Source: Parcubacteria group bacterium GW2011_GWD2_38_11 (lineage in GTDB: Bacteria; Patescibacteriota; Minisyncoccia; Moranbacterales; GWC2-37-73). Taken from it: 51,532 nt of DNA. Position 1 is the stretch's first letter. Each line of letters starts with the position of its first letter. The notes below the pieces were generated by a model, which made no database searches, was not told the origin of the DNA, and saw nothing but the letters and a program-made list of their open reading frames with translations. Location: the NCBI GenBank assembly GCA_000992325.1, contig LBTZ01000002.1:1-51532 (forward strand). The letters are read 5' to 3'. Shown piece after piece: positions 1 to 17,599 of the stretch. The translations under genes were made by a program, and so were the position numbers.

Positions 1-273
1 CGCGTCTTTTTCTTTTTTCAGCGCTTCTTTTTCAATTTCCAGATAAAGTTGCAGTGCTTTAGGGACCCTTCGATAAGGCAGATTAGGTCTTTTGTCAAAC
101 ATTACGTAATCAGTAAAGTCGTCGTTATTAAAATTCAAAATAACGGAGAGCCGATCTATGATATTTGTTAACTTTTTACCCTTATATTTATGTTTAAGAC
201 TAAAGACAATTTTCTCTCCGGAATAGGAGTGGGTGAATAAATATAATCTGATCTGCTTGCGATTTTTTGACAC
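1..273 (-). CDS. hypothetical protein, partial (runs off the left edge)
   Basis: Not in the supplied track. Hand translation of the minus strand from a GTG at 273 (just after an in-frame TAG) stays open to position 1: VSKNRKQIRLYLFTHSYSGEKIVFSLKHKYKGKKLTNIIDRLSVILNFNNDDFTDYVMFDKRPNLPYRRVPKALQLYLEIEKEALKKEKDA. The opposite strand reads like antisense junk. No family recognised. Confidence 0.3.
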   Translation of the reverse strand, partial: MSKNRKQIRLYLFTHSYSGEKIVFSLKHKYKGKKLTNIIDRLSVILNFNNDDFTDYVMFDKRPNLPYRRVPKALQLYLEIEKEALKKEKDA

Positions 274-396: not shown

Positions 397-2190
397 TTAT
401 ATCACACTTTCATCCTCCGCCTCCGTTCCGTCACTGTTGCATTGGGAAAAAATTTCATTCCAACGACAACGCACTGGCACACCAAAAGCGCTGACCGGTT
501 TTCTTTCGGGAGCAAATTCCTGACGCACTGCCGAAACAGCCTCTGATTTTGGAATCAAGTGAATAGCTCTCAGTGTTCCGAATTCTCTTATTTCATTAAT
601 GGAATATTTTTCAGAATAATTCTCGAAAACTTTTTCCACTTTCGATGAAGTTGGATAGATCAAGAAATAATTGCCTTCGGCATATACACTTTTGGTGTTG
701 CGAAAATCATCGCGAACTATTAAACGTTGTTCCAAATGATACAAAAATGCCCTGCGATAAAATGCTTCACTGTTAACATAGACTGGGAAATTGTTTCGCT
801 TGTAGACAGATTCAATATAATCAGTGATGAGAAGTTGCTGCTCAAGCGTCACGCGTTCATTTTCTTTGAGAATTTTATCAGATTCTATTTCAAACGCCGC
901 CACTGGGGCATTGCCAAGTTCTTGAAATCTATTTTTTATAAGCCATCCATTTGAAGCAATGAGAATGATGAAAAAAATCCAAGAGAGATATTCGATTTTC
1001 TTTTTTTCAAAAAAATCAAACATAAAACCTAACAATACAAATGGAACTGGAGCAATAAGCAAAAGAAATCTCGGCGCCAAATCATATGCAATCGGAGTAA
1101 AGAGACCCATTGAAACGACCAGCCAGATCGCCATCAAAGTCAAGAAATCTTTCCTTTTCACATCCTTCACAGAAAAGATATTCCAGCCCAAGGCCGCAAC
1201 ACCCAACAAGAAAAAAATCAAAGAAACTATACCCATAGGCAGTCCGGTCACACACTTTTCGTCGCAGATATAAGAAGGTCTCATACCCACCACTTTAATT
1301 CTTGGAAGATCAGCTTGTGAATCACCACTCAAAAGCAAGACATATCCAGCCGAAATCTCATCCACTCCCCTTATCGCTTTTTCAATTAATGTGTGGTCAT
1401 CTTTGGTGGATTTTTTGATGAACACTTTTTCAAATTCAGCCACATTCTCACCACCAGTTTTGAAATCATTAATAATGACAGGCGTATATAAAAAGACGAA
1501 GCAAATTGCTGCCGCCAACCAATATTTCCAATTAATGGAGGGCCTTTTCAAAAAAAGATATGCTCCGACAATCACAGGAAAGCCCAAAAAGGCCACAAAA
1601 TGAAGTTGCATTGCCACCGCGAGCGCAACAAACGATCCGACAAGCCACCAGCCTTTTCTTTTTTCATCTAGATCTGTTGCGCGCAAAAGACCATATAGGG
1701 TCGCCAAAGTGAAAAAAGGAAGATTATTAGGATTCCATGAAAAACGCGAATACAAAACAAGAAATATTGAAACAGCAAAAACGCCCAAGAGCATAAGCCC
1801 AATTTTTTTTGAAAAAAATCTTCTGACAAACAGATAAAACAGTGGCAACGTTAAACAGGAAAAAATAAGTGAGATGACAGCAATTCCAGAAGGAGTGTTG
1901 CCAAATACTTTTGCACTCACATAACCGAAATAATAAAATATTGGTCCAAGTCGCAAGAAAGAACCGGCAGCTTTTGGTCCAAGCAGCGGCAAGTCGCCTG
2001 CTCCGTTTTCCACCGCCAAATCAATGACTTTCGCATCCCTTGATTGATCAAGTTCGAAATGTTGCCAGTCGGAAAAGTTGTATGCGCGCAAAAAAATACC
2101 GACTGCCAAAATCGCAATCAGAATTGCTCCGACAAAAAATTTGCTCCCGGCCAAAGACTTCAAAGACTCTTTATCTATTGGATTATTCAT
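397..2190 (-). CDS. GT-C fold membrane glycosyltransferase (ArnT/PMT, GT39/GT83-like)
   Basis: 597-aa ORF with about 10 N-terminal TM helices and a soluble C-terminal domain. The N-terminal 170 aa are clearly paralogous to 4592..7306 (FLRAYNFSDWQHFELDQ...GPIFYYFGY...FGNTP...SRFSWNPNNLPFF versus FLRIYHFNDWIHFETDQ...GPAYYYIEY...FGNTP...ARFSWNPNVLPFF). Confidence 0.75.
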   Translation of the reverse strand: MNNPIDKESLKSLAGSKFFVGAILIAILAVGIFLRAYNFSDWQHFELDQSRDAKVIDLAVENGAGDLPLLGPKAAGSFLRLGPIFYYFGYVSAKVFGNTPSGIAVISLIFSCLTLPLFYLFVRRFFSKKIGLMLLGVFAVSIFLVLYSRFSWNPNNLPFFTLATLYGLLRATDLDEKRKGWWLVGSFVALAVAMQLHFVAFLGFPVIVGAYLFLKRPSINWKYWLAAAICFVFLYTPVIINDFKTGGENVAEFEKVFIKKSTKDDHTLIEKAIRGVDEISAGYVLLLSGDSQADLPRIKVVGMRPSYICDEKCVTGLPMGIVSLIFFLLGVAALGWNIFSVKDVKRKDFLTLMAIWLVVSMGLFTPIAYDLAPRFLLLIAPVPFVLLGFMFDFFEKKKIEYLSWIFFIILIASNGWLIKNRFQELGNAPVAAFEIESDKILKENERVTLEQQLLITDYIESVYKRNNFPVYVNSEAFYRRAFLYHLEQRLIVRDDFRNTKSVYAEGNYFLIYPTSSKVEKVFENYSEKYSINEIREFGTLRAIHLIPKSEAVSAVRQEFAPERKPVSAFGVPVRCRWNEIFSQCNSDGTEAEDESVI

Positions 2191-2269: not shown

Positions 2270-4576
2270 ATGAAAAATTTGTTAAATTATATCACAAAAA
2301 ATACGCCCGATGCGCTGCTGACATTTCTGTCTTTTGCATTTGCAATGAACACACTGCTTTTCATTTCGCGCGAGGTAAAAAACCTTTCAATGTTCAATAT
2401 TTCCAGCGACACGACAATTCACTATTTGGCATATTTCATACTCATTGTTTTGACATTCGGAGTCATCGCTTTTTTTTATACCAAAGAAACAAGCTTGAAA
2501 CTGACCATTGAAAAGTTGCTGCTGACTTTTCTGCCAGCAGAACTCTTGATGCTTTATGGTCTCAGCCAATCAACTGATTTTCATTATCTTTTCTATATCG
2601 CATCAGGACTATATGTAATCCTAGCGGGATTCTTTCTGATCAGCAGAAGGAATTTCATATGGAAGGAGAACGAGGTCAAAAACACATTCTCATCTTTCAA
2701 GATATGGGCAAAATTGCAAGGAAAAGTTGCTTGGTTTGTTATTTTTGCCGTGATGCTGACAAATTTGGGACTTGGGACATATAATCTGGCAAAATTTGGA
2801 GCAGTCGATGAGCCTCTTTGGACATTTGATCGGATTCCAAGTTATTGGAAAAATCTCAAGGAAAGAGATTGGAGAAATACCAAAATCAGCGACAAGCCAG
2901 GCATCACAGTGGCAATAATCTCAGGAGCAGGACTCCTATTTGAAAGTCCAAAGACATACAAATCAGCTTATGGCAGAGGATCAGTAGGAACCGAGCTCAA
3001 TCGTTTTGATTTTGAAAAACTGAATTTTGCTTTCAGATTTCCAATCCTACTGTTCACCATCTTAATGCTTCCTTTTTTCTATTTTCTTATGGAAAGACTT
3101 TTAGGAAAGAAAACAGCGCTTTTTTCCTACATTTCCATCGGTCTTTCTCCACTTTTGATTGGGATGGCTAGCATCATAAATCCTGATGCCATCCTTTGGG
3201 TTTTTGCGCCACTTTCACTTCTCTCCTTTTTGGTGTATCAAAAAAGAAGAAATCCTCTCTATCTTTATTTGTCAGGAATATTGCTCGGGTTGGCACTTTT
3301 GACAAAATATGTCGCCAACATTCTTTCCGTTTTCCTTTTGGGTCTTATTTTTGTTGAATATGTTTTCCACAAGGCAAACTATGCAAAAATGACATTGAAA
3401 AGATATCTCAAGGAATCCCTCACGGACTATCTCATTCTCTTTTTTGTTTCGCTGGTGGTTTTTTATATCTTGTTTCCTGCAGTTTGGATAAAACCATCGA
3501 GACTTTTGGAAGGAACACTGCTCAGTCAGGCCTTTGAGAGCACTTGGCCTATTTTTGCTGGTTTTTTTGCGCTCCTGCTAGTTGACATCGCAACAATAGG
3601 CGGAAAAATATCTTCATATGTTTTGGATCTGCTTTCCAAATACAGCAAAATTTTTCTCATTTCAATTTCAGCGCTTTTTCTTTTTTTCATCGCGTTTACT
3701 TTTGCCAACACTTACACAGGAATGTCTTGGTATGATTTTGAAGCGATCATATCTTCGCCGAAATCAGCCTACACTACAGGAGGCTATGATGGACTTTTCT
3801 TTGCAAACTTTTTTCCATTAGTTTTCAGCATAGCTCCACTCTCCCTGATCTTTCTGGTTTTCGCCGCCATTATCAGTATATTTGGAAAAAATATCCCCGC
3901 CAGAACAAGCTCAACCATCTTCTCCCTGACGCTTTTCATCTTCCTATATTATTTGGCAACCACTGTAAACAAGGTTGCAGCAATGAATCGCTATCAAATT
4001 ATGGTCTTTCCATTGGCTATGATATTAGGAGGCATAGGTATGGCCATTTTTTATGAAAAATTCATCAAAAACGAATTCGACAAGAAAAACATCGTTGTGT
4101 TGTTGTTCCTGATTTTCAGTATTGGCACCCTTTATTTCGCCAGACCATTTTTCATAAGCTATGATTCCCCTCTTCTGCCCAACAAATATTATACCGACCT
4201 CAAAGATATGGGCACCGGAAGTTATGAAGCCGCACAATTCATCAACTCTCTGCCAAATCCTGAAGAGTTGCAAGTATGGACCGATAAAAAAGGTGTCTGC
4301 CCATTTCTCAAAGCGAAATGCTATTCTGGCTTTACCTATCCAAGACTGCGCGCTGCAAATCTTGACTACGCCATTGTTTCTGCTGGAAGATCTGCCAGAA
4401 CAAAAAAAATGGTCACTCCTTTGACCATCAAAAAGGATTTGATACGCTTTGACACTCTATACGACAGGGATGACGAGAAAGTTGTCTACAAACTTGAAAT
4501 AAACGGGCGTCCAAGAAATTTCGTAAAAGTAATCGAACTTGATCAGGAATTTTTCGATTTATACAAAAATAACTGA
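2270..4576 (+). CDS. GT-C fold membrane glycosyltransferase (PMT_2/ArnT-like, lipid-carrier dependent)
   Basis: 768-aa polytopic ORF. It has an acidic first-loop motif (AVDEPLW) typical of GT39/GT83 enzymes, many TM helices, and a soluble C-terminal ~130 aa. Confidence 0.72.
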   Translation: MKNLLNYITKNTPDALLTFLSFAFAMNTLLFISREVKNLSMFNISSDTTIHYLAYFILIVLTFGVIAFFYTKETSLKLTIEKLLLTFLPAELLMLYGLSQSTDFHYLFYIASGLYVILAGFFLISRRNFIWKENEVKNTFSSFKIWAKLQGKVAWFVIFAVMLTNLGLGTYNLAKFGAVDEPLWTFDRIPSYWKNLKERDWRNTKISDKPGITVAIISGAGLLFESPKTYKSAYGRGSVGTELNRFDFEKLNFAFRFPILLFTILMLPFFYFLMERLLGKKTALFSYISIGLSPLLIGMASIINPDAILWVFAPLSLLSFLVYQKRRNPLYLYLSGILLGLALLTKYVANILSVFLLGLIFVEYVFHKANYAKMTLKRYLKESLTDYLILFFVSLVVFYILFPAVWIKPSRLLEGTLLSQAFESTWPIFAGFFALLLVDIATIGGKISSYVLDLLSKYSKIFLISISALFLFFIAFTFANTYTGMSWYDFEAIISSPKSAYTTGGYDGLFFANFFPLVFSIAPLSLIFLVFAAIISIFGKNIPARTSSTIFSLTLFIFLYYLATTVNKVAAMNRYQIMVFPLAMILGGIGMAIFYEKFIKNEFDKKNIVVLLFLIFSIGTLYFARPFFISYDSPLLPNKYYTDLKDMGTGSYEAAQFINSLPNPEELQVWTDKKGVCPFLKAKCYSGFTYPRLRAANLDYAIVSAGRSARTKKMVTPLTIKKDLIRFDTLYDRDDEKVVYKLEINGRPRNFVKVIELDQEFFDLYKNN

Positions 4577-4591
4577 TGAATTAAATTATCT

Positions 4592-7306
4592 ATGACCCTA
4601 AAAAAAATATCGGACTTAATAAAGAAAAAAAGTTTTCTTATTGCCATAGTTTTTATCATTCTTGCTGGTTCATTTCTGCGAATTTATCATTTCAACGATT
4701 GGATTCACTTTGAAACCGATCAGACAGATGATTATCTTATAACATCTCCCGCGATCCAGAATGGAATAGAAAATCTCAAGCTGCTTGGACCAAGAGCTGG
4801 AGCAGAAGAATTACGCATAGGACCGGCATATTATTATATTGAATATCTGGGTGGAAAAATTTTTGGAAACACCCCACAGGGTCATGCCGCACCAAATTTG
4901 ATTCTTGCTATTGCCGCTATGCCATTGTTCTTTGTTTTTGCGCGTCTTTATTTTTCCCGAATAATTTCCGCCTCACTGCTAGTTTTATATGCCACCTCAT
5001 TTTATCTGATTCAATATGCTCGCTTTTCCTGGAATCCAAACGTTCTGCCTTTTTTTGTTCTAGCAACCTTCTATTTGCTTTTGCGAAGCGTTTCTCCCGA
5101 AGAAAAAAGACGAGATGTTTTTTTCATATTCTCATTGACGATTCTTTCAATAATAAGCCAACTGCATTTCAACGGCCTTTTTATTATTGTCCCGGCATAT
5201 GTAATTTTTCTTCTGATAAAAAGACCGCACTTCCCTATCAAAACTTGGGTTTATGCGATCTTGTTTTCAATTCTCATTTATTCTCCAATTATATTGCATG
5301 AATTAAAATACGATTTTTCAAATTCAAAATTATTAATTGAAAAAATTTCAGGCAATTCGAAAGAAAAAGAAAAATCAGAAGAAAAGAATGTTTCAGAAAA
5401 AATAGTACAGAATTTACGTTATAATTCCGGGGAATTTTTTCTCATACTTACGGGAGAAGACAGAATAAACACAAGTCGTCCAAACGGATATTCACTGGGG
5501 ATATTATGCAACGCGTGCAAAGAAGATCGCATCTGGAGATTATCAGCACTATTTTTATACATTGCATCAGTTTTACTTCTGGGATGGAATATCAAAAAGG
5601 AAAAAAACAAAACGAGAAAGGATTTTTTGATACTTTCAGCGCTATGGTTGTCCATTGGCAGCGCTTATTTCATATCATTAACACTGAATAAATTATACAT
5701 ATATCCGAGGTTCTATCTTGTGCTTGCACCTCTTGCATTCATACTTTTGGGTCTGATATTTGAAAAAATAATCTTTAGAAAAAAACTCATCAATACCATT
5801 CTTATTGTTGCGATTACATTATTGATTGCAATAATAAATTCAACAAAAATATCAGACAGTTTTTGGCAGCTGAAAAATTCGCAGCAAATTGCGGTTAAGA
5901 TTGAAACTGAAGATGTCTTCCCCAACTATTACAGAGCTCCACTGTTCATACATCAAAAAATTTCAGATTACATAGAACAACAAGTTCCAAACAAAAATAC
6001 AAAAATTTTCATTTCATCCGAATCGGAATATGAACCGATCTATTGGATTATTCTTCAAAATAAGGGCTACAATTATTTCAATGAATTTGATGATGAAAAA
6101 CCGAGCGAGGTCGGAGAATATTTTTCAATACAATTAAGTGCTAACAAGAAAAAGAACGATTCCGAGAATTTTTCTGATTTTTTCGATATTATTGAAGTTA
6201 AGGATTTTGGAATTATGAAGGTTACGCGTCTAAAACCAAAAGTTGATGTTGCATATGACACCAATATTAATACAGTAACGCAAAAAAGAAGCCAGGTTTC
6301 AGCAATCGAAAAAATGCATTCCTGGAAAGATTTATTCCAAGACTCAACACTCTTAAACAAAGTGCCCGGCATAAAAAATATTTACGACAATGAACTGCGC
6401 ACTGCAATCATAACAGACATTGATCACTGCCCCTCAAGAGAAGCTGCTTCGACTGAAAAACTTGACGCTTTTATTGATTTTGGCGGAGAAAAAAAAGCTG
6501 ATTTTATGATCAGTCTTGGAGATAATGCGAGTCATCGTCTCAGAAGCTGCTCGACAACTGCAGATATGGATGCGCGCTTCATTGCTGATTATCTCAGAAC
6601 TTCAACCTTGCCGACACATTTCGTTCTTGGCGATCATGACATAGAAAGCGACATAAAATCATATCAAAACTGGCTGGAAACAGTCAAGAAAAATGAAACA
6701 TTCTATTCTTTTGATTTGAAAAATTTCCATATCATTGTTCTGGATACGGTTCTTGGAGGAGAACCGATGAGTCTTTCCTGCCAGGAAGATGCTTACTGCA
6801 CATTGATCGAAAATCGTCTTTCGGAATTAAACAAAATCGCATTTAAAGCATATGCTCAGAAATATGCTGATGCAAAAAAATCCATCAAAGAAGAAAAAGA
6901 TGCTCTCAATTCTATTCTTCAGGAAGTATACGATTCAAAAAAAATTACGCGATCTTGGGGTGTTCGTGATCGCGGACAAATATTAGAAAAAGAATTGGCT
7001 TGGCTTGCTGCAGATATAAATGCAACGCAACATTCCCGCGTGCTTGTTTTCAGTGATCATCCATTGTTCAAATTTGCCTCACAAAAAAAAGTTTATGATA
7101 TCGCCAATGGAGACAAGGCAAGGGAGATATTAGAAAAAAGTGGAAAAGAAATCGTGGCTATTTCCGGAGAAGCTCATCTTTGGCACGAAGAAAAGCAAGG
7201 AAATATTCAATACTACATTATCGATGAATTTCGCAAATCAAATGGCTCTTGGGCATATTTCACTTGGAATAAAGACGGATTCCGTCTGGAAAAAGAAACT
7301 CACTAA
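4592..7306 (+). CDS. GT-C membrane glycosyltransferase fused to a C-terminal calcineurin-like metallophosphoesterase domain
   Basis: 904-aa ORF. The N-terminal ~420 aa are paralogous to 397..2190. The C-terminal ~300 aa carry ordered metallophosphoesterase-like motifs: ITDIDH, LGDNASH, VLGDHDIE, VFSDHPLF, ISGEAHLW. Confidence 0.75.
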   Translation: MTLKKISDLIKKKSFLIAIVFIILAGSFLRIYHFNDWIHFETDQTDDYLITSPAIQNGIENLKLLGPRAGAEELRIGPAYYYIEYLGGKIFGNTPQGHAAPNLILAIAAMPLFFVFARLYFSRIISASLLVLYATSFYLIQYARFSWNPNVLPFFVLATFYLLLRSVSPEEKRRDVFFIFSLTILSIISQLHFNGLFIIVPAYVIFLLIKRPHFPIKTWVYAILFSILIYSPIILHELKYDFSNSKLLIEKISGNSKEKEKSEEKNVSEKIVQNLRYNSGEFFLILTGEDRINTSRPNGYSLGILCNACKEDRIWRLSALFLYIASVLLLGWNIKKEKNKTRKDFLILSALWLSIGSAYFISLTLNKLYIYPRFYLVLAPLAFILLGLIFEKIIFRKKLINTILIVAITLLIAIINSTKISDSFWQLKNSQQIAVKIETEDVFPNYYRAPLFIHQKISDYIEQQVPNKNTKIFISSESEYEPIYWIILQNKGYNYFNEFDDEKPSEVGEYFSIQLSANKKKNDSENFSDFFDIIEVKDFGIMKVTRLKPKVDVAYDTNINTVTQKRSQVSAIEKMHSWKDLFQDSTLLNKVPGIKNIYDNELRTAIITDIDHCPSREAASTEKLDAFIDFGGEKKADFMISLGDNASHRLRSCSTTADMDARFIADYLRTSTLPTHFVLGDHDIESDIKSYQNWLETVKKNETFYSFDLKNFHIIVLDTVLGGEPMSLSCQEDAYCTLIENRLSELNKIAFKAYAQKYADAKKSIKEEKDALNSILQEVYDSKKITRSWGVRDRGQILEKELAWLAADINATQHSRVLVFSDHPLFKFASQKKVYDIANGDKAREILEKSGKEIVAISGEAHLWHEEKQGNIQYYIIDEFRKSNGSWAYFTWNKDGFRLEKETH

Positions 7307-7352: not shown

Positions 7353-8288
7353 TTATTTTCTGCTTCTCAAATATGCTGGCAGCGCCGTGAAACTCACGAT
7401 CATTTGCAGTGCGCGACTCACCAACGCCACAGCAACCACAGCACTTGCTGGAACCCCAAAGAAACCGAAAAATGTAACATAGGCCCATTCCTTGAGTCCT
7501 ATGTTATTGATGCTGATCGGCAAAGCTGAAATTATGCTTATAAGAAAAATCACTGAAAGATATTGCCAAACTCCCACTGCAATTCCAAGTCCAGCAAAAA
7601 GTACCCAGTTGACCAAGGCTAGTCCCACCACGCCAAATAACATAGAGATTCCGATCGCTTTGAGATAAGTCCCATCTTGACGATAATGTGTGAGTTCCGA
7701 ACCGAAGTCTTGCACGGCTTTCGGCAACTTGCCGGCGATTTTTTTCCAAAAAGAAAATTTCGTCAGAATACCAAAAAAAATCAAAATATGCATCGCAATG
7801 AGCGTGCCAACAATCGCCACCCTCAATTGTCCGTGCTGGGCAATTTCATTGCGCTGAAAAATTGCAACCAGACCAGTCAAAAGCATTAGCGCAAAAAGTC
7901 CCGTCACGCGATCAAAAACCACGCTAGAACCCACAGCAGCAAAGCGCTTATTATTTTCCTTTGCAATTTGATACGTACGATAGGTGTCTCCTCCAATAGT
8001 GGAGGGCATAAAATTATTAATGAAAGCTCCTGTCAGATACAGCTGAAAACTTCTTTTCAGACTAATAGAAATATCCTTATGCGCCAAAAGCATTTTCCAT
8101 TTCCAAGCTGAAATCATCATCCCCAAGAGAAGCACTACTACATACAAAATAACATACCCCAAAGAAATTTTTTGCGTATAAAAAAGAACTTCCTTCCAAT
8201 TAATCTCAAAAACCAGCCATGCCACGAACAACAAGCTTACTGCTAGTTTCAAAATAAATTTTAGTATTTTATTATTCAATAAATGCAT
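7353..8288 (-). CDS. UPF0104 / lysylphosphatidylglycerol-synthase-TM-like flippase-like membrane protein
   Basis: 311 aa with about 8 TM helices. Contains the family-typical motif NNFMPSTIGGDTYRTYQ. Confidence 0.7.
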   Translation of the reverse strand: MHLLNNKILKFILKLAVSLLFVAWLVFEINWKEVLFYTQKISLGYVILYVVVLLLGMMISAWKWKMLLAHKDISISLKRSFQLYLTGAFINNFMPSTIGGDTYRTYQIAKENNKRFAAVGSSVVFDRVTGLFALMLLTGLVAIFQRNEIAQHGQLRVAIVGTLIAMHILIFFGILTKFSFWKKIAGKLPKAVQDFGSELTHYRQDGTYLKAIGISMLFGVVGLALVNWVLFAGLGIAVGVWQYLSVIFLISIISALPISINNIGLKEWAYVTFFGFFGVPASAVVAVALVSRALQMIVSFTALPAYLRSRK

Positions 8289-8359: not shown

Positions 8360-8716
8360 TTATTTACATGAACTGATTATTTTTTGAAATATCATTGTAA
8401 GTTCATGATTTTCTTGCCAATACTTCCTTATCTCATCTTTTCTCTCCAATAAGCATCCAGCAATCATCCTCAGCCAATATTTTGTCTCTTGAGCTTCTTT
8501 TTTGCAGATAAATATTTTATTTCGAAAATCCTTCTTTGAACTTGCATTGTTTGCTTCACAATAGTTTGCTCCAATGCTAGTCCCACTTCTTATTAGCTGG
8601 CTAATCAGAGGCCTTGTTATAGTATCTTGTTTTATACTTTTACAAAATTCTATAATATTTTCTCCGAATATAGCTGTTCTTTCTTCTAGATTGTATTTAT
8701 TTGAAAATTGTTCCAT
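8360..8716 (-). CDS. four-helix-bundle protein (23S rRNA intervening-sequence protein family, TIGR02436-like)
   Basis: 118 aa with the hallmark SGTSIGANYCEA...DF..K..IC.KEA.ET.YWL. Paralogue of 17234..17599. Confidence 0.88.
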   Translation of the reverse strand: MEQFSNKYNLEERTAIFGENIIEFCKSIKQDTITRPLISQLIRSGTSIGANYCEANNASSKKDFRNKIFICKKEAQETKYWLRMIAGCLLERKDEIRKYWQENHELTMIFQKIISSCK

Positions 8717-8761: not shown

Positions 8762-9928
8762 TTATTTATTCATTCGACCTAGATTAGAAGTTTTTACATA
8801 AATTTCCTCGTATTCCCCCGCCACCTTTTCCCAACTCAAAGTCTCGGCCAATTTGCGACTCTCAAGACTCATTGTTTTTTCAAGTGTTGGATTTAAAATC
8901 AATTTTTCAATTTTTTCAGCCAAGTCATTTGAGTCTTTCATTTTAACAATCAATCCGTTCACATTGTTAGTCAAAAGTTCTTTGGTGCCACCAGTGTCAG
9001 TTGCAACCACTGGCAATCCAACAGCCAAAGCTTCCAACATCACATTACTCATTCCTTCATTGAGCGATGGAAGCACGAAAATATTGGCTCGTTGATAAAA
9101 TGCCAGCACGTTATTATGAGCAATTGCACCAGCAAATTCAACCTTATCTTTAATACCAAGACCTTGCACTAAATCCTCAAGTGATTTTTTTTCATTTCCA
9201 TCTCCCACAATCAAAAGTCGAGCCTGATCATAACGTCCAGAGAGTATCTTGAAAGCTTGAATCAAAAACCGCACACCTTTTCTTGGAGTGACGCGCGAAA
9301 CACAAATAATAGTAAAATGTTCTTGATTGCGCTTGGTTGTGTCAGGAAAAAATTCTTCAACATCAATCCCATTATACACAACACCTATTTCTTTTTTTGA
9401 CTCAGATTTAAGTGCCAAATCCTTAAGCCCTTGGCTATTTGCAACAACAAAAGAAGCGCCTTTCCAAATTTTCAAAATAGTAGGCGTGATCCATTTGTAA
9501 AGTCCGACGAAACGCTCACTGTATCCAGGAACATCAGAGCCGCGCAAAGAAATAATATACGGAATTTTAAATTCCCATTTCAAAAACATTGAAATCACGC
9601 CGCAAGGCACGGAAAAAAATGAATGCGAAAGATCATAAGCATTCTGCTTGGCCAGTTTGCGCGCAAACCAATACGCATTCCAAGTATAGGAAATCAATTC
9701 TTTCTTGGTTTGATAATGAATATTTTCAGCATTTTTTCCAATTGGCAGCCGATGAATTGTGATGTTCTCGCCCATCTTCAAAAGATGATATTTCTCATCA
9801 ACGGAAGCCGTCACAAAATCAACCTGCAAATCAGGATTTTTTGCATATTCGCGCAACAGATAATATGAAGCATTTCCCGCTCCCCCTCCCAACGGCGGAA
9901 ATTCGTAATTGAAAAAAAGGATTTTCAT
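8762..9928 (-). CDS. GT4 family glycosyltransferase
   Basis: 388 aa. N-terminus reads MKILFFNYEFPPLGGGAGN. C-terminal EX7E region reads SLNEGMSNVMLEALAVGLPVVATDTGG. Confidence 0.85.
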   Translation of the reverse strand: MKILFFNYEFPPLGGGAGNASYYLLREYAKNPDLQVDFVTASVDEKYHLLKMGENITIHRLPIGKNAENIHYQTKKELISYTWNAYWFARKLAKQNAYDLSHSFFSVPCGVISMFLKWEFKIPYIISLRGSDVPGYSERFVGLYKWITPTILKIWKGASFVVANSQGLKDLALKSESKKEIGVVYNGIDVEEFFPDTTKRNQEHFTIICVSRVTPRKGVRFLIQAFKILSGRYDQARLLIVGDGNEKKSLEDLVQGLGIKDKVEFAGAIAHNNVLAFYQRANIFVLPSLNEGMSNVMLEALAVGLPVVATDTGGTKELLTNNVNGLIVKMKDSNDLAEKIEKLILNPTLEKTMSLESRKLAETLSWEKVAGEYEEIYVKTSNLGRMNK

Positions 9929-11290: not shown

Positions 11291-12616
11291 TTACCGTCCT
11301 ATCGATTTATATTCAAATCCCATCTCTTTCATTTTTTTAGGTTCATACAAAAGTCTGCCGTCAAAAATCATCGGGGTTTTCAAAAGTTTCAAAATTTCCT
11401 CAAAATCTGGCGTGCGGAATTCTTTCCATTCAGTGATAACAAGCATCGCATCAGCACCCTTGAGCGCATCATATTTGTTTTCAAAATATGCAATGCTTGA
11501 ATTTTCTCCAAAATATTCCTCGCGCTTAGCCATCGCCATCGCTTCTGGATCATGCGCCTTAATTTTGGCTCCTCTTTTGACCAATTCATTTATGATAGTA
11601 AGCGCTGAAGATTCGCGCATATCATCTGTGCCAGCTTTGAAAGCCAATCCCCACACGCCAAAAATTTTTCCGTTCAAATCTTCGCCCAAAGCATCCACCA
11701 CTATTTGAGACAACACAAATTTTTGCTTGTCATTTGTTTCCAATGTTTGTTTCAGCATTTCAGCGTCATATCCAAAATCTTTGGCTGTCTTTACCAACGC
11801 TTTCACATCCTTTGGAAAGCACGATCCACCGAAACCAGGACCGGCATACATAAACGGTTCTCCAATGCGTGGATCGGCGCCCATTGCTTTGCGCACATTA
11901 TCAAAATCAGCTCCCGCCTTGCTGCAAATATTTGCCAATTCATTATTCACGGAAATTTTCGCAGCCAAAAAACAATTTGAAGCATATTTCACAATCTCAG
12001 CTGTCTTTGGATCCATAGCAAAAAATCTTCCTTCGCGTCGCATAAAAGGTTCGTATAATTCGCGCATTATTTCAATAACGTCTTTCGAATCTGCGCCTAT
12101 AACAATACGACTCGGTTCCAAGAAATCTTTGACTGCAGTTCCTTGCGCCAAAAATTCCGGATTACTCACCACTGAAAAAGGAATTTCAACTCCTCTTTTT
12201 CTGAGCTCTTCTGCAATATTTTTGGAAACTTTTTCCGCAGTTCCCACCGGCACAGTTGATTTGTCCACAACAATAAGAGGATGATCCATCATTTGACCAA
12301 TTGAAGTTGCCACACCAAGCACGTGAGAAAGATCTGCGCTTCCATCTTCATTGGGAGGTGTGCCCACGGCAATAAAAAGAATGTCGCATTTCTTTAGAGT
12401 TTCTTCCAGATCAGTCGTAAATGTCAAAGTTTTATTTTTCAAATTTCGAGAAACCAATTCATCCAAGCCTTTTTCGTGAAGTGGAACTTTGCCAGAAGAA
12501 AATTGATCAACTTTTTTTTGATCATTATCCACACAAATAACAGTGTTCCCCATCTCCGCAAAGCAAGCACCCGTCACACTTCCCACATATCCCGTCCCAA
12601 TAACTCCAATTTTCAT
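11291..12616 (-). CDS. ugd: UDP-glucose 6-dehydrogenase
   Basis: 441 aa. N-terminal Rossmann motif MKIGVIGTGYVGSVTG, catalytic GGSCFPKD, and a typical C-terminal UDP-binding domain. Confidence 0.9.
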   Translation of the reverse strand: MKIGVIGTGYVGSVTGACFAEMGNTVICVDNDQKKVDQFSSGKVPLHEKGLDELVSRNLKNKTLTFTTDLEETLKKCDILFIAVGTPPNEDGSADLSHVLGVATSIGQMMDHPLIVVDKSTVPVGTAEKVSKNIAEELRKRGVEIPFSVVSNPEFLAQGTAVKDFLEPSRIVIGADSKDVIEIMRELYEPFMRREGRFFAMDPKTAEIVKYASNCFLAAKISVNNELANICSKAGADFDNVRKAMGADPRIGEPFMYAGPGFGGSCFPKDVKALVKTAKDFGYDAEMLKQTLETNDKQKFVLSQIVVDALGEDLNGKIFGVWGLAFKAGTDDMRESSALTIINELVKRGAKIKAHDPEAMAMAKREEYFGENSSIAYFENKYDALKGADAMLVITEWKEFRTPDFEEILKLLKTPMIFDGRLLYEPKKMKEMGFEYKSIGR

Positions 12617-12630
12617 ATTTTTAAAATATT

Positions 12631-12668
12631 ATGCTAATTATGCGAATAAATACCAATCCACGAATTAC
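12631..12668. repeat. left inverted-repeat arm flanking the GxxExxY gene
   Basis: atgctaattatgcgaataaataccaatccacgaattac compared with the reverse complement of 13108-13146 (atgctaatccacgaataaatgccaatccactaattgcgaa). Confidence 0.7.
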
Positions 12669-13075
12669 TAATACTTAAATTCAGAATTTATGACTCTTTT
12701 AGGCTTTAAATATTTATCTCTGAAATTTATCAACAAGCCCAACTTTTTATTTAAAGCAATGAGATATCTTTTAGTTTGATAAAAATCAGTTCTTTCAATT
12801 AATCTTTTTGCCTTAAGCTCTAAAATAATTGAGTCTTCTATCAAAAAATCAATCTTATTTCTATTTATTTTTTCTCCCTCAAAAGAAACAGGCAGAAATT
12901 CTTCTCTTTTGTAGTTTATATTGTTTTCCTTTAGATTTTTTTCTAAGCAATCTCCATACTGCTTTTCATTGCAATACCTGCCCAATTCATTGTGAACAGC
13001 AAATAAAATTCCACCTATCTTATATGATAGCTCGGGATAAATAAGTTCTTGTTTCATTTTTGTTTTTATTTGCAA
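12668..13075 (-). CDS. GxxExxY family protein (PD-(D/E)XK nuclease-like fold)
   Basis: 135 aa. The layout HNELG....E..Y...[16 protein letters not shown] and LGLLINF matches the GxxExxY family (TIGR04256-like). Confidence 0.75.
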
Positions 13076-13146
13076 TTAGTGTATTGGCGATTAGCCACGC
13101 TCCCTATTCGCAATTAGTGGATTGGCATTTATTCGTGGATTAGCAT
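13069..13146. repeat. right inverted-repeat arm (one and a half tandem copies) flanking the GxxExxY gene
   Basis: tttgcaattagtgtattggcgattagcc ... ttcgcaattagtggattggcatttattcgtggattagcat. Confidence 0.7.
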
Positions 13147-14087
13147 CACATCTGTGTAATTTCTTTGATATTATAATTCATTCTTCTCTGATTTTTATAG
13201 TAAACTTTTAGAAGTATATCAGCCAATAGTCCGAACACGAAAAGTTGGATGCCGACAAGCACTAAGAAGATTCCTACCAATGGCCAGATTTTTTCTGACA
13301 GAGATGCTCCGAAAAAAATCTTTTCAACAGCCATCCAGAGAATTATCAATGTCCCAACAAATGAAAGCACGATTCCGCTTCCTCCAAAAAGATGGAGCGG
13401 CCTGTTGGAATATTTGCGCCAAAACCAAATCGAAATCATATCCACAAAACCTTTCATCCCACGTTTCCAGTTGTATTTGGTCACGCCGTGAACACGAGGA
13501 AAATGCGAAACTTTCACCTCGCCAACTTTATACCCCTGCAACTCCAAAAGTGCCGGCATAAAACGATGCATTTCTCCAAACAGATCCACATCTTCAAAAC
13601 AATTGCGCTTATATGCTTTCAGAGAACAACCGCTGTCGTGAATCGTGTCTTGAATCAAAATCTTTCGCAGCATATTGGCAGTGCGCGAAAAGATTTTTTT
13701 GCTCAAGGAATCTTTACGCTTGAAGCGCCAACCGGAGACAACATCAAAACCTTCTTCCATCTTTTCCAAAAGAAGTCCAATATCGGCTGGATCATTTTGC
13801 AAATCACCATCCATTGTGATCACAACCTCACCTTTTGCCTGTTTTATGCCAGCATCAAAAGCGGCAGTTTGCCCAAAATTTTTGCGAAATTTGATCAAGG
13901 TCAGTGGCGAAAGTCCTTCACAGTCTTTAACCGTGCCATCTTTTGAACCATCATCAATAAAAATGATTTCGAATGACTTTTCAAGCTTCTGACACGCCTC
14001 CAAGATACGCCTGTGCAATTCCTTCACATTCCCCTCTTCATTATAAAGTGGCACAACCACTGAGATTAACGGTTTCTGATCATCCAT
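13146..14087 (-). CDS. GT2 polyprenyl-phosphate glycosyltransferase (DPM1/ArnC/GtrB-like)
   Basis: 313 aa. Motifs VVVPLYNEEGN, IFIDDGSKDGT and MDGDLQNDP, plus two C-terminal TM helices. Confidence 0.87.
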   Translation of the reverse strand: MDDQKPLISVVVPLYNEEGNVKELHRRILEACQKLEKSFEIIFIDDGSKDGTVKDCEGLSPLTLIKFRKNFGQTAAFDAGIKQAKGEVVITMDGDLQNDPADIGLLLEKMEEGFDVVSGWRFKRKDSLSKKIFSRTANMLRKILIQDTIHDSGCSLKAYKRNCFEDVDLFGEMHRFMPALLELQGYKVGEVKVSHFPRVHGVTKYNWKRGMKGFVDMISIWFWRKYSNRPLHLFGGSGIVLSFVGTLIILWMAVEKIFFGASLSEKIWPLVGIFLVLVGIQLFVFGLLADILLKVYYKNQRRMNYNIKEITQM

Positions 14088-17233: not shown

Positions 17234-17599
17234 ATGACAAATGGAAAACCAACAAAATTTGATTTAGAGGAGCGTACGGCAATTTTTGGAGAAAAAATTA
17301 TTAAATTTTCTAAATGTATTTCCAAAAGTGAAGTAACGAAACCACTGATCAGCCAAATTGTAAGAAGCGGAACAAGTATTGGCGCAAATTATATGGAAGC
17401 TGATGGAGCGGAATCTCGAAAAGACTTTATCCACAAATTAGGCATTTGCAAAAAAGAAAGTAAGGAAACCAAGCATTGGCTTAGAATGATTGCCGTTGCA
17501 GACTCGGAAGTAAGTAACGAGTCTAGAGAATTATGGAGGGAATGCCAAGAACTTACGCTAATATTTTCAGCAATAATTACAAAGACAAAACAAAATTGA
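17234..17599 (+). CDS. four-helix-bundle protein (23S rRNA IVS protein family)
   Basis: 121 aa reading SGTSIGANYMEADGAESRKDFIHKLGICKKESKETKHWLRMI. Paralogue of 8360..8716. Confidence 0.88.
   Translation: MTNGKPTKFDLEERTAIFGEKIIKFSKCISKSEVTKPLISQIVRSGTSIGANYMEADGAESRKDFIHKLGICKKESKETKHWLRMIAVADSEVSNESRELWRECQELTLIFSAIITKTKQN

What the first reader, a model, noticed from the sequence alone, without database searches (positions are those of the whole stretch)
4592..7306. GT-C glycosyltransferase fused to an extracytoplasmic metallophosphoesterase domain
The N-terminal ~420 aa are a polytopic ArnT/PMT-like module, paralogous to 397..2190. After the last TM helix the protein continues for about 300 aa (roughly nt 6400-7306) with an ordered set of calcineurin-like phosphoesterase motifs: DIDH, GDNASH, GDHD, SDHP, GEAH. 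GT-C enzymes use polyprenyl-phosphate-linked sugars on the outer face. A fused phosphoesterase could process the phosphodiester or lipid-phosphate product, recycle the carrier, or trim a phospho-sugar decoration. I do not recall this domain combination being characterised.
Basis: partly seen in the sequence, partly recalled or inferred. Interest (0 to 1): 0.62.

Follow-up and report, generated by a model that had tools for sequence, protein, structure and literature searches.

The report
Glycosyltransferase fused to outward-facing phosphoesterase
One intact gene of a tiny uncultured (Moranbacteria-type, candidate phyla radiation) bacterium joins a membrane sugar-transferring enzyme to an unusual metal-dependent phosphate-ester-cutting domain outside the cell; in related genomes this domain sits on different neighbouring transferases, which suggests an undescribed step in building the cell surface.

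Summary
Confirmed. ORF 4592-7306 (+) is an intact 904-aa protein in a ~0.94-Mb Moranbacteria-type (CPR) genome. It is an 11-TM GT-C glycosyltransferase (ArnT/PMT-like fold, full-length paralogue of 397-2190). A 12-residue linker joins its outward-facing tail to a 307-aa metallophosphoesterase (MPE) domain.

Pfam misses the MPE. HHalign matches it to canonical Metallophos proteins (E 2e-41). A profile search of PDB and AlphaFold/Foldseek (purple acid phosphatases, ADPRibase-Mn-like 2nxf, Rv0805, GpdQ; E 1e-11) agree.

Every metal-ligand position is occupied, but four are shifted to carboxylates: DxH to DxD, GNHD to GDHD, motif-IV His to Asp, GHxH to GExH. The fusion is collinear in three assemblies and under purifying selection.

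In the tree, this MPE nests among MPEs fused to another GT-C subfamily. Within one conserved locus it is attached to three different GT-C genes, or stands alone with a membrane anchor. It therefore seems to serve the pathway, not one transferase.

The substrate is unknown. My best guess is an outer-face phosphodiesterase/pyrophosphatase acting on a lipid- or wall-linked glycan intermediate. I found no publication on it. The scan has met this fusion before on other DNA (e1-1912273, e1-1559906 and others), with concordant verdicts.

The parts
4592..7306 (+). Whole fusion gene, 904 aa plus stop
   Evidence: Open frame. Gapless 904-codon alignment with two other assemblies, L002 and G040/L019.
4592..5851 (+). 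GT-C transmembrane module, residues 1-420, about 11 TM helices with the N-terminus inside
   Evidence: Hydropathy and positive-inside rule. AF2 model pLDDT 86 with Foldseek hits to ArnT, AglB, ALG12, STT3 and PMT. PMT_2 at 25.1 bits.
4712..4732 (+). First outer loop acidic motif ETDQTDD (residues 41-47), the likely catalytic loop of the GT-C
   Evidence: D43 and D47 are invariant in 28 family members. The position directly after TM1 is typical of GT-C enzymes (established knowledge).
5852..6346 (+). GT-C extracytoplasmic tail domain, residues 421-585, mixed alpha/beta
   Evidence: Aligned with the tail of the paralogue P0002. Free-standing orthologues of 576-579 aa align to residues 1-584. Secondary structure.
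6347..6382 (+). 12-residue linker TLLNKVPGIKNI, the fusion junction
   Evidence: Lies between the end of GT-C homology (about residue 584-585) and the start of MPE-family homology at residue 598-599. The sequence was read directly.
6383..7303 (+). Divergent metallophosphoesterase domain, residues 598-904
   Evidence: AF2 pLDDT 91. Foldseek PAP, 2nxf, Rv0805 and GpdQ at E 1e-11 to 1e-9. HHalign E 1.9e-41 to canonical Metallophos proteins.
6416..6427 (+). Motif I, DIDH. D609 matches the canonical Asp and D611 replaces the canonical His of DxH.
   Evidence: Column mapping. Distant free-standing relatives read D-x-H at the same columns.
6518..6535 (+). Motif II, GDNASH. D644 is the bridging Asp, and S647 replaces the second Asp of GDxxD.
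6629..6640 (+). Motif III, GDHD. D681 replaces the Asn of GNHD; H682 and D683 are kept.
   Evidence: P0028 keeps N at this column.
6770..6976 (+). Family-specific insert, residues 727-795: a C730-x5-C736 loop, about three helices, then RDRG
   Evidence: Unaligned to canonical MPEs in HHalign. Helical in the model. Shortened in P0028. C730, C736, R792 and D793 are invariant.
7052..7063 (+). Motif IV, SDHP. D822 sits in the canonical His position.
7166..7189 (+). Motif V, GEAHLWHE. E860 replaces the first His of GHxH; H862 is kept.
397..2190 (-). B-type GT-C paralogue (597 aa) without MPE, part of the conserved locus
   Evidence: Syntenic in L002, L003, L004, L019, L021, L032, L033 and L038.
2270..4576 (+). 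A-type GT-C (768 aa), 15 nt upstream of the fusion gene. It is the homologue of the N-terminal part of the A-MPE fusion P0006 and ends at that protein's domain junction.
   Evidence: 39% identity to P0006 residues 44-759. Intergenic sequence.
7353..8288 (-). LPG_synthase_TM / UPF0104 membrane protein, convergent neighbour and conserved locus member
   Evidence: Pfam E 9e-43. Synteny.
8762..9928 (-). GT4 glycosyltransferase of the locus
   Evidence: Synteny.
11291..12616 (-). UDP-glucose/GDP-mannose dehydrogenase of the locus
   Evidence: Synteny.
13146..14087 (-). GT2 glycosyltransferase, the likely polyprenyl-phosphate-sugar synthase that feeds the GT-Cs
   Evidence: Pfam Glycos_transf_2. 69-89% identical across the compared loci. 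A GT2 plus B-type GT-C fusion exists elsewhere, P0184.

Best explanation
SHOWN. The gene encodes one polypeptide with two enzyme-type modules on the outer face of the membrane. The first is an ArnT/PMT-like GT-C glycosyltransferase with 11 TM helices, an acidic first outer loop and an outer tail domain. The second is a dinuclear-type metallophosphoesterase hung on that tail by a 12-residue linker. The MPE keeps a side chain able to bind metal at every ligand position, but four positions are changed to carboxylates: D611, D681, D822 and E860. Site 1 reads D609/D611/D644/H862. Site 2 reads D644/D681/D822/E860.

INFERRED, about 0.7. The MPE is catalytically active and works in the same surface-glycan pathway as the locus. 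That locus holds Wzx-type flippase genes in relatives, three GT-Cs, GT2, GT4, a UDP-sugar dehydrogenase and UPF0104. The MPE does not appear to be tied to one particular transferase.

MECHANISM I COMMIT TO, about 0.3-0.4. The GT-Cs extend a glycan on the outer leaflet using polyprenyl-phosphate sugars. The MPE, held at the membrane surface beside them, hydrolyses the phosphodiester or pyrophosphate bond that ties a glycan to its polyprenyl carrier. This is UpsH-like chemistry on the opposite face of the membrane. It would free the carrier lipid and release the finished or stalled glycan. The carboxylate-rich site suggests a hard or higher-valent metal pair (Mn2+, Ca2+, Mg2+ or Fe3+) in place of Zn2+ or Ni2+.
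For: - Architecture and integrity.
- GT-C fold.
- MPE homology and fold.
- Ligand mapping.
- Outside location: topology. All 17 full-length free-standing relatives read start with a hydrophobic anchor 10-25 residues before the first strand, and P0047 has a lipobox. Four invariant Cys also fit an outside location.
- Active-site columns are invariant across 26 fusion clusters down to 42% identity, and dN/dS of the MPE part is 0.19-0.20.
- Pathway coupling: in a conserved locus the MPE is fused to A (L037), to A' (L003, L004, L038) or to B' (window, L002, G040). It is free-standing next to A in G066 and G025. The MPE tree needs at least 4 fusion/fission changes, and the window's MPE nests (100/99 support) inside A-fused MPEs. 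In L033 an unrelated membrane-anchored canonical MPE occupies the same slot.
- Donor type: a GT2 gene lies in the locus, and a GT2 plus B-type GT-C fusion exists.
- Bond type: the nearest named sequence neighbours are phosphodiesterases, SpdA and CpdA. Structural neighbours include the pyrophosphatase-type 2nxf and the diesterases Rv0805 and GpdQ.
- Precedent: the MPE UpsH frees undecaprenyl phosphate from UndPP-linked polymers (PMC11898649).
- LCP genes in the genome imply UndPP-linked wall polymers.
Against: - No activity, metal or substrate is known for any member of the family.
- PMT_2/ArnT-type GT-Cs release polyprenyl monophosphate, which needs no phosphatase.
- The genome already has a PAP2 phosphatase for Und-PP.
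- UpsH acts on the cytoplasmic face and keeps the GHxH histidines.
- In the order sampled, 10 of the 14 genomes with a strong MPE match encode the free-standing MPE away from A- or B-type GT-C genes, among unrelated neighbours. Only about 14 of 151 genomes have the family, while 138 of 151 have B-type GT-Cs. It is therefore an accessory, not a core step.
Confidence: 0.4

Rival explanations
1. Glycan-trimming phosphodiesterase, PGAP5/Cdc1/Ted1-like. The MPE removes a phosphoester substituent (for example a phospho-alcohol or sugar phosphate) from the glycan or acceptor that the GT-Cs are building. This would be a maturation step.
For: The MPE is an outer-face, membrane-proximal domain in a pathway built by Dol-P/Und-P-dependent GT-Cs. 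The domain moves between GT-C partners, as expected if it acts on their common product. The nearest named relatives are diesterases.
Against: No enzyme that would install such a substituent was found in this 90%-complete genome. There was no match to the sulfatase/LtaS/EptA family or to the TagF-type family. Sequence relationship to PGAP5 was not tested.
Confidence: 0.2
2. General surface phosphodiesterase or nucleotidase for nutrient scavenging, in an organism that depends on imported nucleotides and phosphate. The GT-C only serves as its membrane anchor.
For: Most free-standing relatives in the sampled order lie outside glycan loci, carry a plain TM anchor and have unrelated neighbours. Structural neighbours include surface cyclic-nucleotide phosphodiesterases such as Lmo2642 and Rv0805, and PhoD. 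The distribution is patchy and accessory.
Against: All full-length fusion proteins found are with GT-C modules of the same locus: 26 clusters plus P0043 and P0045, at least 4 fusion/fission changes, three GT-C lineages. When free-standing inside the locus, the MPE abuts the A-type GT-C. A random anchor would not be so specific.
Confidence: 0.15
3. Non-catalytic module. The MPE fold has lost its chemistry and acts as a phosphate- or glycan-binding or structural domain for the GT-C.
For: Four canonical ligands are replaced, and the Asp of GDxxD is lost (S647). Pfam's model does not recognise the domain. Some relatives are clearly degenerate: P0050, and the 'DIGAC' forms P0029, P0036 and P0043.
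Against: Every replacement is to a metal-binding Asp or Glu, not to an inert residue. The ligand columns, H682 and H862 are invariant or nearly invariant across the 26 fusion clusters. This pattern is unlike known dead MPEs.
Confidence: 0.08
4. Artefact: two adjacent genes joined by a frameshift, a sequencing error or a misassembly.
For: Orthologues of the GT-C part at 60-70% identity are free-standing proteins of 576-579 aa.
Against: The same 904-codon frame occurs without gaps or stops in the window, in G040 and in a groundwater metagenome contig, at 89% amino-acid identity to the window, with purifying selection on all parts.
Confidence: 0.01

Closest known systems
ArnT (GT83) and PMT (GT39) type GT-C glycosyltransferases, Pfam PMT_2/PMT
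   Same: Polytopic fold (Foldseek 5ezm/5f15 E 7e-7), an acidic first outer loop and an outer tail domain. The polyprenyl-phosphate-sugar donor is inferred from the locus GT2 gene and from a GT2-GT-C fusion.
   Different: No sequence-level match to any solved GT-C. The PMT_2 score lies just under the cut-off. It carries a C-terminal phosphoesterase that no characterised GT-C has, as far as my searches show.
Three-component glycosylation systems (GtrA/GtrB/GtrC; CsbB/GtcA/YfhO)
   Same: The locus combines a GT2, membrane flippase-like proteins (UPF0104 here, GtrA in L003) and GT-C enzymes.
   Different: There are three to four GT-Cs per locus, plus a Wzx-type flippase, GT4 and a sugar dehydrogenase. 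A phosphoesterase is also part of the set.
Dinuclear metallophosphoesterases: purple acid phosphatases, ADPRibase-Mn-like 2nxf, class III phosphodiesterases (Rv0805, GpdQ, CpdA, SpdA)
   Same: Same fold and motif order. The 'LGDN' and 'RD.G...WL' stretches align with purple acid phosphatase.
   Different: Four ligand positions are shifted to Asp or Glu. The second Asp of motif II is lost. There is a helical insert of about 65 residues with a CxxxxxC loop, four invariant Cys, and scores far below every curated family cut-off (30 bits against 400 for SpdA).
UpsH (YpbG) of Bacillus subtilis, undecaprenyl-pyrophosphate sugar hydrolase (PMC11898649)
   Same: A membrane-tethered metallophosphoesterase that acts on polyprenyl-linked glycan intermediates. 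The free-standing relatives of the window's domain have the same architecture, one TM helix plus an MPE.
   Different: UpsH faces the cytoplasm, keeps both GHxH histidines and is stress-induced. The window's domain is predicted to lie outside and is fused to a GT-C. Orthology was not tested.
PGAP5 (MPPE1) / Cdc1 / Ted1 of GPI-anchor maturation
   Same: A membrane-bound MPE on the non-cytoplasmic side that processes a glycolipid built by GT-C mannosyltransferases (established knowledge).
   Different: PGAP5 is eukaryotic and is never fused to a GT-C. The matching phospho-substituent transferase family was not found in this genome. Sequence relationship was not tested.

Membership tests
Metallophosphoesterase (calcineurin-like) superfamily | Beta-sandwich phosphoesterase fold | tested here: met
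   AF2 model pLDDT 91, pTM 0.89. All 50 listed Foldseek PDB hits are MPEs, best E 1e-11.
Metallophosphoesterase (calcineurin-like) superfamily | Detectable sequence homology to canonical members | tested here: met
   HHalign probability 100%, E 1.9e-41 against 30 distant phmmer hits; the 10 such hits that were scanned are all Pfam Metallophos. phmmer hits at 1e-10 to 1e-5. PDB profile hits at 1e-5 to 7e-4.
Metallophosphoesterase (calcineurin-like) superfamily | Five motifs in order with the canonical ligands D-x-H / G-D-x-x-D / G-N-H-[DE] / H / G-H-x-H | tested here: not met
   Order and spacing are kept, but the residues read D-x-D / G-D-x-x-S / G-D-H-D / D / G-E-x-H. This is a variant ligand set, not the canonical one.
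Metallophosphoesterase (calcineurin-like) superfamily | Pfam PF00149 above its gathering score | tested here: not met
   No hit for the whole protein or the isolated domain. The genome-wide PF00149 search finds only another gene.
Metallophosphoesterase (calcineurin-like) superfamily | Metal-dependent phosphoester hydrolysis | not testable with these tools
   Needs biochemistry.
GT-C glycosyltransferases (PMT_2 / ArnT / PMT type) | GT-C membrane fold | tested here: met
   AF2 pLDDT 86. Foldseek hits to ArnT, AglB, ALG12, STT3, PMT, PglB, AftA and Emb.
GT-C glycosyltransferases (PMT_2 / ArnT / PMT type) | Conserved acidic residues in the first extracytoplasmic loop | tested here: met
   D43 and D47 are invariant in 28 sequences. 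The loop is predicted outside.
GT-C glycosyltransferases (PMT_2 / ArnT / PMT type) | Pfam PMT_2 above its gathering score | tested here: inconclusive
   25.1 bits against a 26.1 cut-off for this protein. The paralogue P0002 scores 46.5 bits, and most listed homologues carry precomputed PF13231.
GT-C glycosyltransferases (PMT_2 / ArnT / PMT type) | Polyprenyl-phosphate-sugar donor | not testable with these tools
   Only context is available: a GT2 gene in the locus and the GT2 plus B-type GT-C fusion P0184.
UpsH (YpbG)-type UndPP-sugar hydrolases | Catalytic domain on the cytoplasmic face | tested here: not met
   The tail is predicted outside. UpsH was shown to be cytoplasmic.
UpsH (YpbG)-type UndPP-sugar hydrolases | Both GHxH histidines (H202, H204) required | tested here: not met
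   The first His is Glu (E860) here.
PGAP5/Cdc1/Ted1-type glycan phosphodiesterases | Partner transferase that installs the phospho-substituent (sulfatase/PigN/EptA superfamily) | tested here: not met
   No PF00884 match in the 90%-complete genome.
PGAP5/Cdc1/Ted1-type glycan phosphodiesterases | Sequence membership | not tested
   No reference sequence was compared.
Class III cyclic-nucleotide phosphodiesterases (CpdA/SpdA/Rv0805) | Score above the curated NCBIfam cut-off | tested here: not met
   SpdA 30 bits against a 400 cut-off. Relatives score similarly low.

The most novel reading that the evidence does not exclude
The domain could be the founding member of an outer-face carrier-release or transfer step. 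In this reading a carboxylate-rich (possibly Ca/Mn/Fe) metallophosphoesterase cuts the polyprenyl-(pyro)phosphate-glycan bond outside the cell. It would either free completed glycan and recycle the carrier, or pass glycan phosphate to a wall acceptor. Such a route for surface-polymer release or attachment has not been described in bacteria, and it would be specific to ultra-small CPR bacteria.
Probability: 0.15. Interest if true: 0.8.

Novelty: new variant of a known kind. Interest (0 to 1): 0.55.

Why it matters
The cell envelope of CPR/Patescibacteria is almost unknown. These organisms live attached to hosts and cannot make many of their own lipids. Within this order, B-type GT-C genes are nearly universal (138 of 151 genomes), and the GT-C locus recurs in the same gene order in all the related loci compared.

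The locus repeatedly captures the same unusual phosphoesterase, fused to whichever GT-C lies nearby. This Rosetta-stone pattern points to a missing chemical step on the outer face of the membrane. Identifying the substrate would add a reaction to polyprenyl-carrier glycobiology. It would also give a variant metal site (mostly carboxylates) to a heavily studied enzyme superfamily.

In practical terms, the domain is invisible to Pfam, so these proteins are currently annotated only as 'glycosyltransferase family 39'.

Tried and rejected
- Single-sequence Pfam and PDB searches of residues 587-904 gave only noise (DUF7852, ATP synthase delta). Profiles were needed.
- A sequence profile of the GT-C module found no solved structure. 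Fold search was needed.
- I tested whether the MPE could be the organism's Und-PP phosphatase. BacA was not found, but a PAP2 protein is present, so this role is not required.
- I looked for enzymes that make phosphodiester decorations or teichoic-type polymers. Neither the sulfatase/LtaS/EptA family nor the TagF family was found. Two LCP ligases are present.
- I pooled 91 neighbours of ten free-standing relatives to look for an enriched partner family. Nothing consistent appeared, only GT4 in a few loci plus housekeeping genes.
- I considered that the window's fusion arose by loss of the stop codon between B' and a downstream MPE gene. The closest B' orthologue loci do not support this. L032 has no MPE, and L033 has an unrelated MPE on the other strand. 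The MPE tree instead places the domain inside A-fused MPEs.
- Model coordinates are not exposed, so Cys-Cys distances and metal geometry could not be measured.
Full report
**What is there.** The window is contig C2 of a 0.94-Mb, 39-contig, 90%-complete genome. Named relatives of its proteins are annotated as Candidatus Moranbacteria/Moraniibacteriota, in the CPR/Patescibacteria. ORF 4592..7306 (+) is open for 904 codons. It starts 15 nt after the stop of the preceding GT-C gene, 2270..4576.

**N-terminal module.**
- Residues 4-585 align over their whole length with the 597-aa product of 397..2190: 33% identity, E 3e-96. The first 585 residues are therefore a complete GT-C of that subfamily, called 'B type' here. 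They comprise about 11 TM helices plus a 165-residue tail.
- Hydropathy shows positively charged short loops on alternate sides. This gives N-terminus in, a first loop (36-96, with ETDQTDD) out, and everything after residue ~420 out.
- Pfam gives PMT_2 at 25.1 bits, just below the 26.1-bit cut-off. The paralogue scores 46.5 bits.
- A sequence profile of 28 family members finds no solved structure.
- The AlphaFold2 model (pLDDT 86) matches ArnT (5ezm/5f15, E 7e-7), then AglB, ALG12, STT3, PMT, PglB, AftA and EmbA/B.
- D43 and D47 in the first outer loop are invariant.

**C-terminal domain.**
- Single-sequence Pfam and PDB searches fail. NCBIfam gives only a weak SpdA hit (E 4e-7, 30 bits against a 400-bit cut-off).
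- A search of 1.8 billion representative proteins found 221 relatives. About 32 are close family members (E below 1e-30). The remainder include ordinary proteins of 250-400 aa, and the ten of these that I scanned are all Pfam Metallophos.
- A profile of 22 family members hits only metallophosphoesterases in PDB: 2nxf at 1.3e-5 and purple acid phosphatases at about 1e-4.
- HHalign between the family and 30 of the distant canonical-type hits gives probability 100%, E 1.9e-41.
- The AlphaFold2 model of residues 598-904 is confident (pLDDT 91, pTM 0.89). All 50 of its listed Foldseek hits are metallophosphoesterases: purple acid phosphatases, 2nxf, Rv0805, Lmo2642, GpdQ, Mre11, LpxH and PhoD.

**Metal site.** I mapped every relative onto the family HMM columns and checked the mapping against the HHalign alignment.

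| Canonical element | Window residue(s) |
|---|---|
| Asp of D-x-H | D609 |
| His of D-x-H | D611 |
| Bridging Asp of G-D | D644 |
| Second Asp of GDxxD | S647 |
| Asn of GNHD | D681 (one relative, P0028, keeps Asn) |
| His-Asp of GNHD | H682-D683 |
| Motif-IV His | D822, not H823 |
| First and second His of GHxH | E860 and H862 |

- All ligand positions therefore stay competent to bind metal. Site 2 becomes all-carboxylate and site 1 keeps a single His.
- More distant free-standing members still read D-x-H, and three of them (P0037, P0047, P0049) keep His at column 822. The shift is therefore gradual within the family.
- GDHD, G-[ED]-x-H and four Cys (C613, C653, C730, C736) hold in nearly all family members. 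Exceptions are P0028 (GNHD), the degenerate P0050, and the short forms P0053-P0055, which lack the C730/C736 columns.
- An insert of about 65 residues, mostly helical (727-795), has no counterpart in canonical enzymes.
- I could not measure geometry because model coordinates are not exposed.

**Is the fusion real?** The same 904-codon frame is present in a same-genus genome (G040) and in a groundwater metagenome contig (L002). Both are 89% identical to the window at the protein level, with no gaps or stops. dN/dS is 0.07 for the TM module, 0.12-0.14 for the tail and 0.19-0.20 for the MPE.

**Location of the MPE.** Beyond the topology count, all 17 full-length free-standing relatives I read begin with a hydrophobic anchor 10-25 residues before the first strand. 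One of them has a lipobox. Replacing that anchor with the outward-ending tail of a GT-C keeps the domain outside.

**Evolution and context.** The locus is conserved across the family. Its order is B(-) | A(+) | X(+) | UPF0104/LPG_synthase_TM(-) | GT4(-) | UDP-sugar dehydrogenase(-) | GT2(-). In relatives, a Wzx-type flippase and a ~510-aa unknown protein lie further upstream. The MPE sits at different places in this locus:

| Locus | Position of the MPE |
|---|---|
| L037 | Fused to A; an MPE-less A' follows |
| L003, L004, L038 | Fused to A' |
| Window, G040, L002 | Fused to B' |
| G066, G025 | Separate gene abutting A |
| L032 (70% B' orthologue) | Absent |
| L033 (60% B' orthologue) | Replaced by an unrelated, membrane-anchored canonical MPE on the other strand in the same slot |

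- A maximum-likelihood tree of the MPE domain places the window's copy inside a clade of A-fused copies, with 100/99 support. The tree needs at least four fusion/fission changes overall.
- The window's fusion is therefore best explained as a swap of GT-C partner within the locus, confined so far to one genus. In a 151-genome sample of the order, only G000 and G040 have a ~907-aa frame, while 138 of 151 genomes have B-type GT-Cs. About 14 of 151 have a strong MPE-family match, mostly free-standing.
- Ten free-standing copies outside the locus have no consistent neighbours.
- More distant GT-C-MPE fusions also exist: P0043 and P0045, with 38% identity in the MPE. So does a GT2 plus B-type GT-C fusion, P0184.

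**Function.**
- Shown: two intact, selected, outward-facing enzyme-type modules, and a recurrent physical or genomic link between this MPE family and the GT-C locus.
- Inferred from the GT2 gene and the GT2-GT-C fusion: the GT-Cs use polyprenyl-phosphate sugars, as in three-component glycosylation systems.
- That reaction needs no phosphatase. The genome also has a PAP2 enzyme for Und-PP, although BacA was not found. Simple carrier dephosphorylation is therefore unlikely to be the reason for the domain.
- The genome has two LCP ligases, so UndPP-linked wall polymers probably exist. It lacks detectable LtaS/EptA-type and TagF-type enzymes. This weakens a PGAP5-like trimming role and a teichoic-acid role.
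- The nearest named sequence relatives are phosphodiesterases. A published precedent shows that the membrane-tethered MPE UpsH frees undecaprenyl phosphate from UndPP-linked polymers, although on the cytoplasmic face (PMC11898649).
- On balance I favour hydrolysis of the (pyro)phosphate link of a lipid-linked glycan at the outer leaflet, at about 0.3-0.4. Glycan trimming follows at 0.2, scavenging at 0.15, and a non-catalytic module at 0.08.

**Comparison with what is known, and novelty.** Both halves belong to known superfamilies. Full-text searches for the combination found nothing, and the only relevant paper was the UpsH study. Pfam does not see the MPE, so databases list these proteins only as family-39 glycosyltransferases. 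I class the finding as a new variant of a known kind. The architecture is uncharacterised, and the MPE clade has a carboxylate-shifted metal site and a private insert.

**Earlier scan notes.** The scan has already met this fusion on other DNA. The same 904-aa protein appears in a relative (e1-1912273), and sister fusions appear in e1-1559906, e1-1551853, e1-1276444, e1-1556541 and e1-3707751. My independent tests agree with those notes. They add the residue-level ligand mapping, the tree placement that shows a partner swap, and the three-partner picture within one locus.

Noticed in passing
window 2270-4576 (+): The upstream A-type GT-C (768 aa) is the homologue of the N-terminal 760 residues of the A-MPE fusion P0006. 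It ends about 10 residues after the point where P0006 continues into its MPE. The window thus looks like 'A | B'-MPE' where a relative has 'A-MPE | A''.
   Followed up: partly
L033:9367-10431 (-): In the locus of a 60% B' orthologue, a membrane-anchored canonical Pfam Metallophos protein lies between B' and the UPF0104 gene. It reads DxH, GNHE, GH.E and is not detectably similar to the window's MPE by tblastn. This may be a non-orthologous replacement of the same function.
   Followed up: partly
P0184 (850 aa, metagenome protein): A GT2 domain is fused to a B-type GT-C (41% identical to the window's GT-C). This Rosetta-stone link supports polyprenyl-phosphate-sugar supply to this GT-C subfamily.
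   Followed up: no
P0050, P0029, P0036, P0043 (relatives): Some family members have degenerate metal sites. P0050 reads N644, L681, R682, A859, R860, D862. The 'TDIGAC' forms lack a ligand at column 611. These are probably inactive or altered copies.
   Followed up: no
window 8360-8716 (-), 12668-13075 (-), 17234-17599 (+): Small genes are wedged between the glycan genes: two of the 23S-rRNA-IVS four-helix-bundle family and one PD-(D/E)XK_3.
   Followed up: no
G000 whole genome: No match was found for BacA, the sulfatase/LtaS/EptA family or the TagF family. One PAP2, two LCP ligases and only one Pfam-detectable Metallophos gene (C14:31590-31961) were found. The genome is 90% complete.
   Followed up: partly
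G014, G140, G133, G043, G061, G148 and others (order survey): Several B-type GT-C matches in related genomes carry one to three in-frame stop codons (TAA, TAG or TGA). These may be pseudogenes or assembly errors among the many paralogues.
   Followed up: no
window 1-273 (-): A truncated ORF lies at the contig start. In relatives this position holds a conserved ~510-aa protein with no Pfam match, followed by a Wzx-type flippase. These look like unexplored members of the same locus.
   Followed up: no
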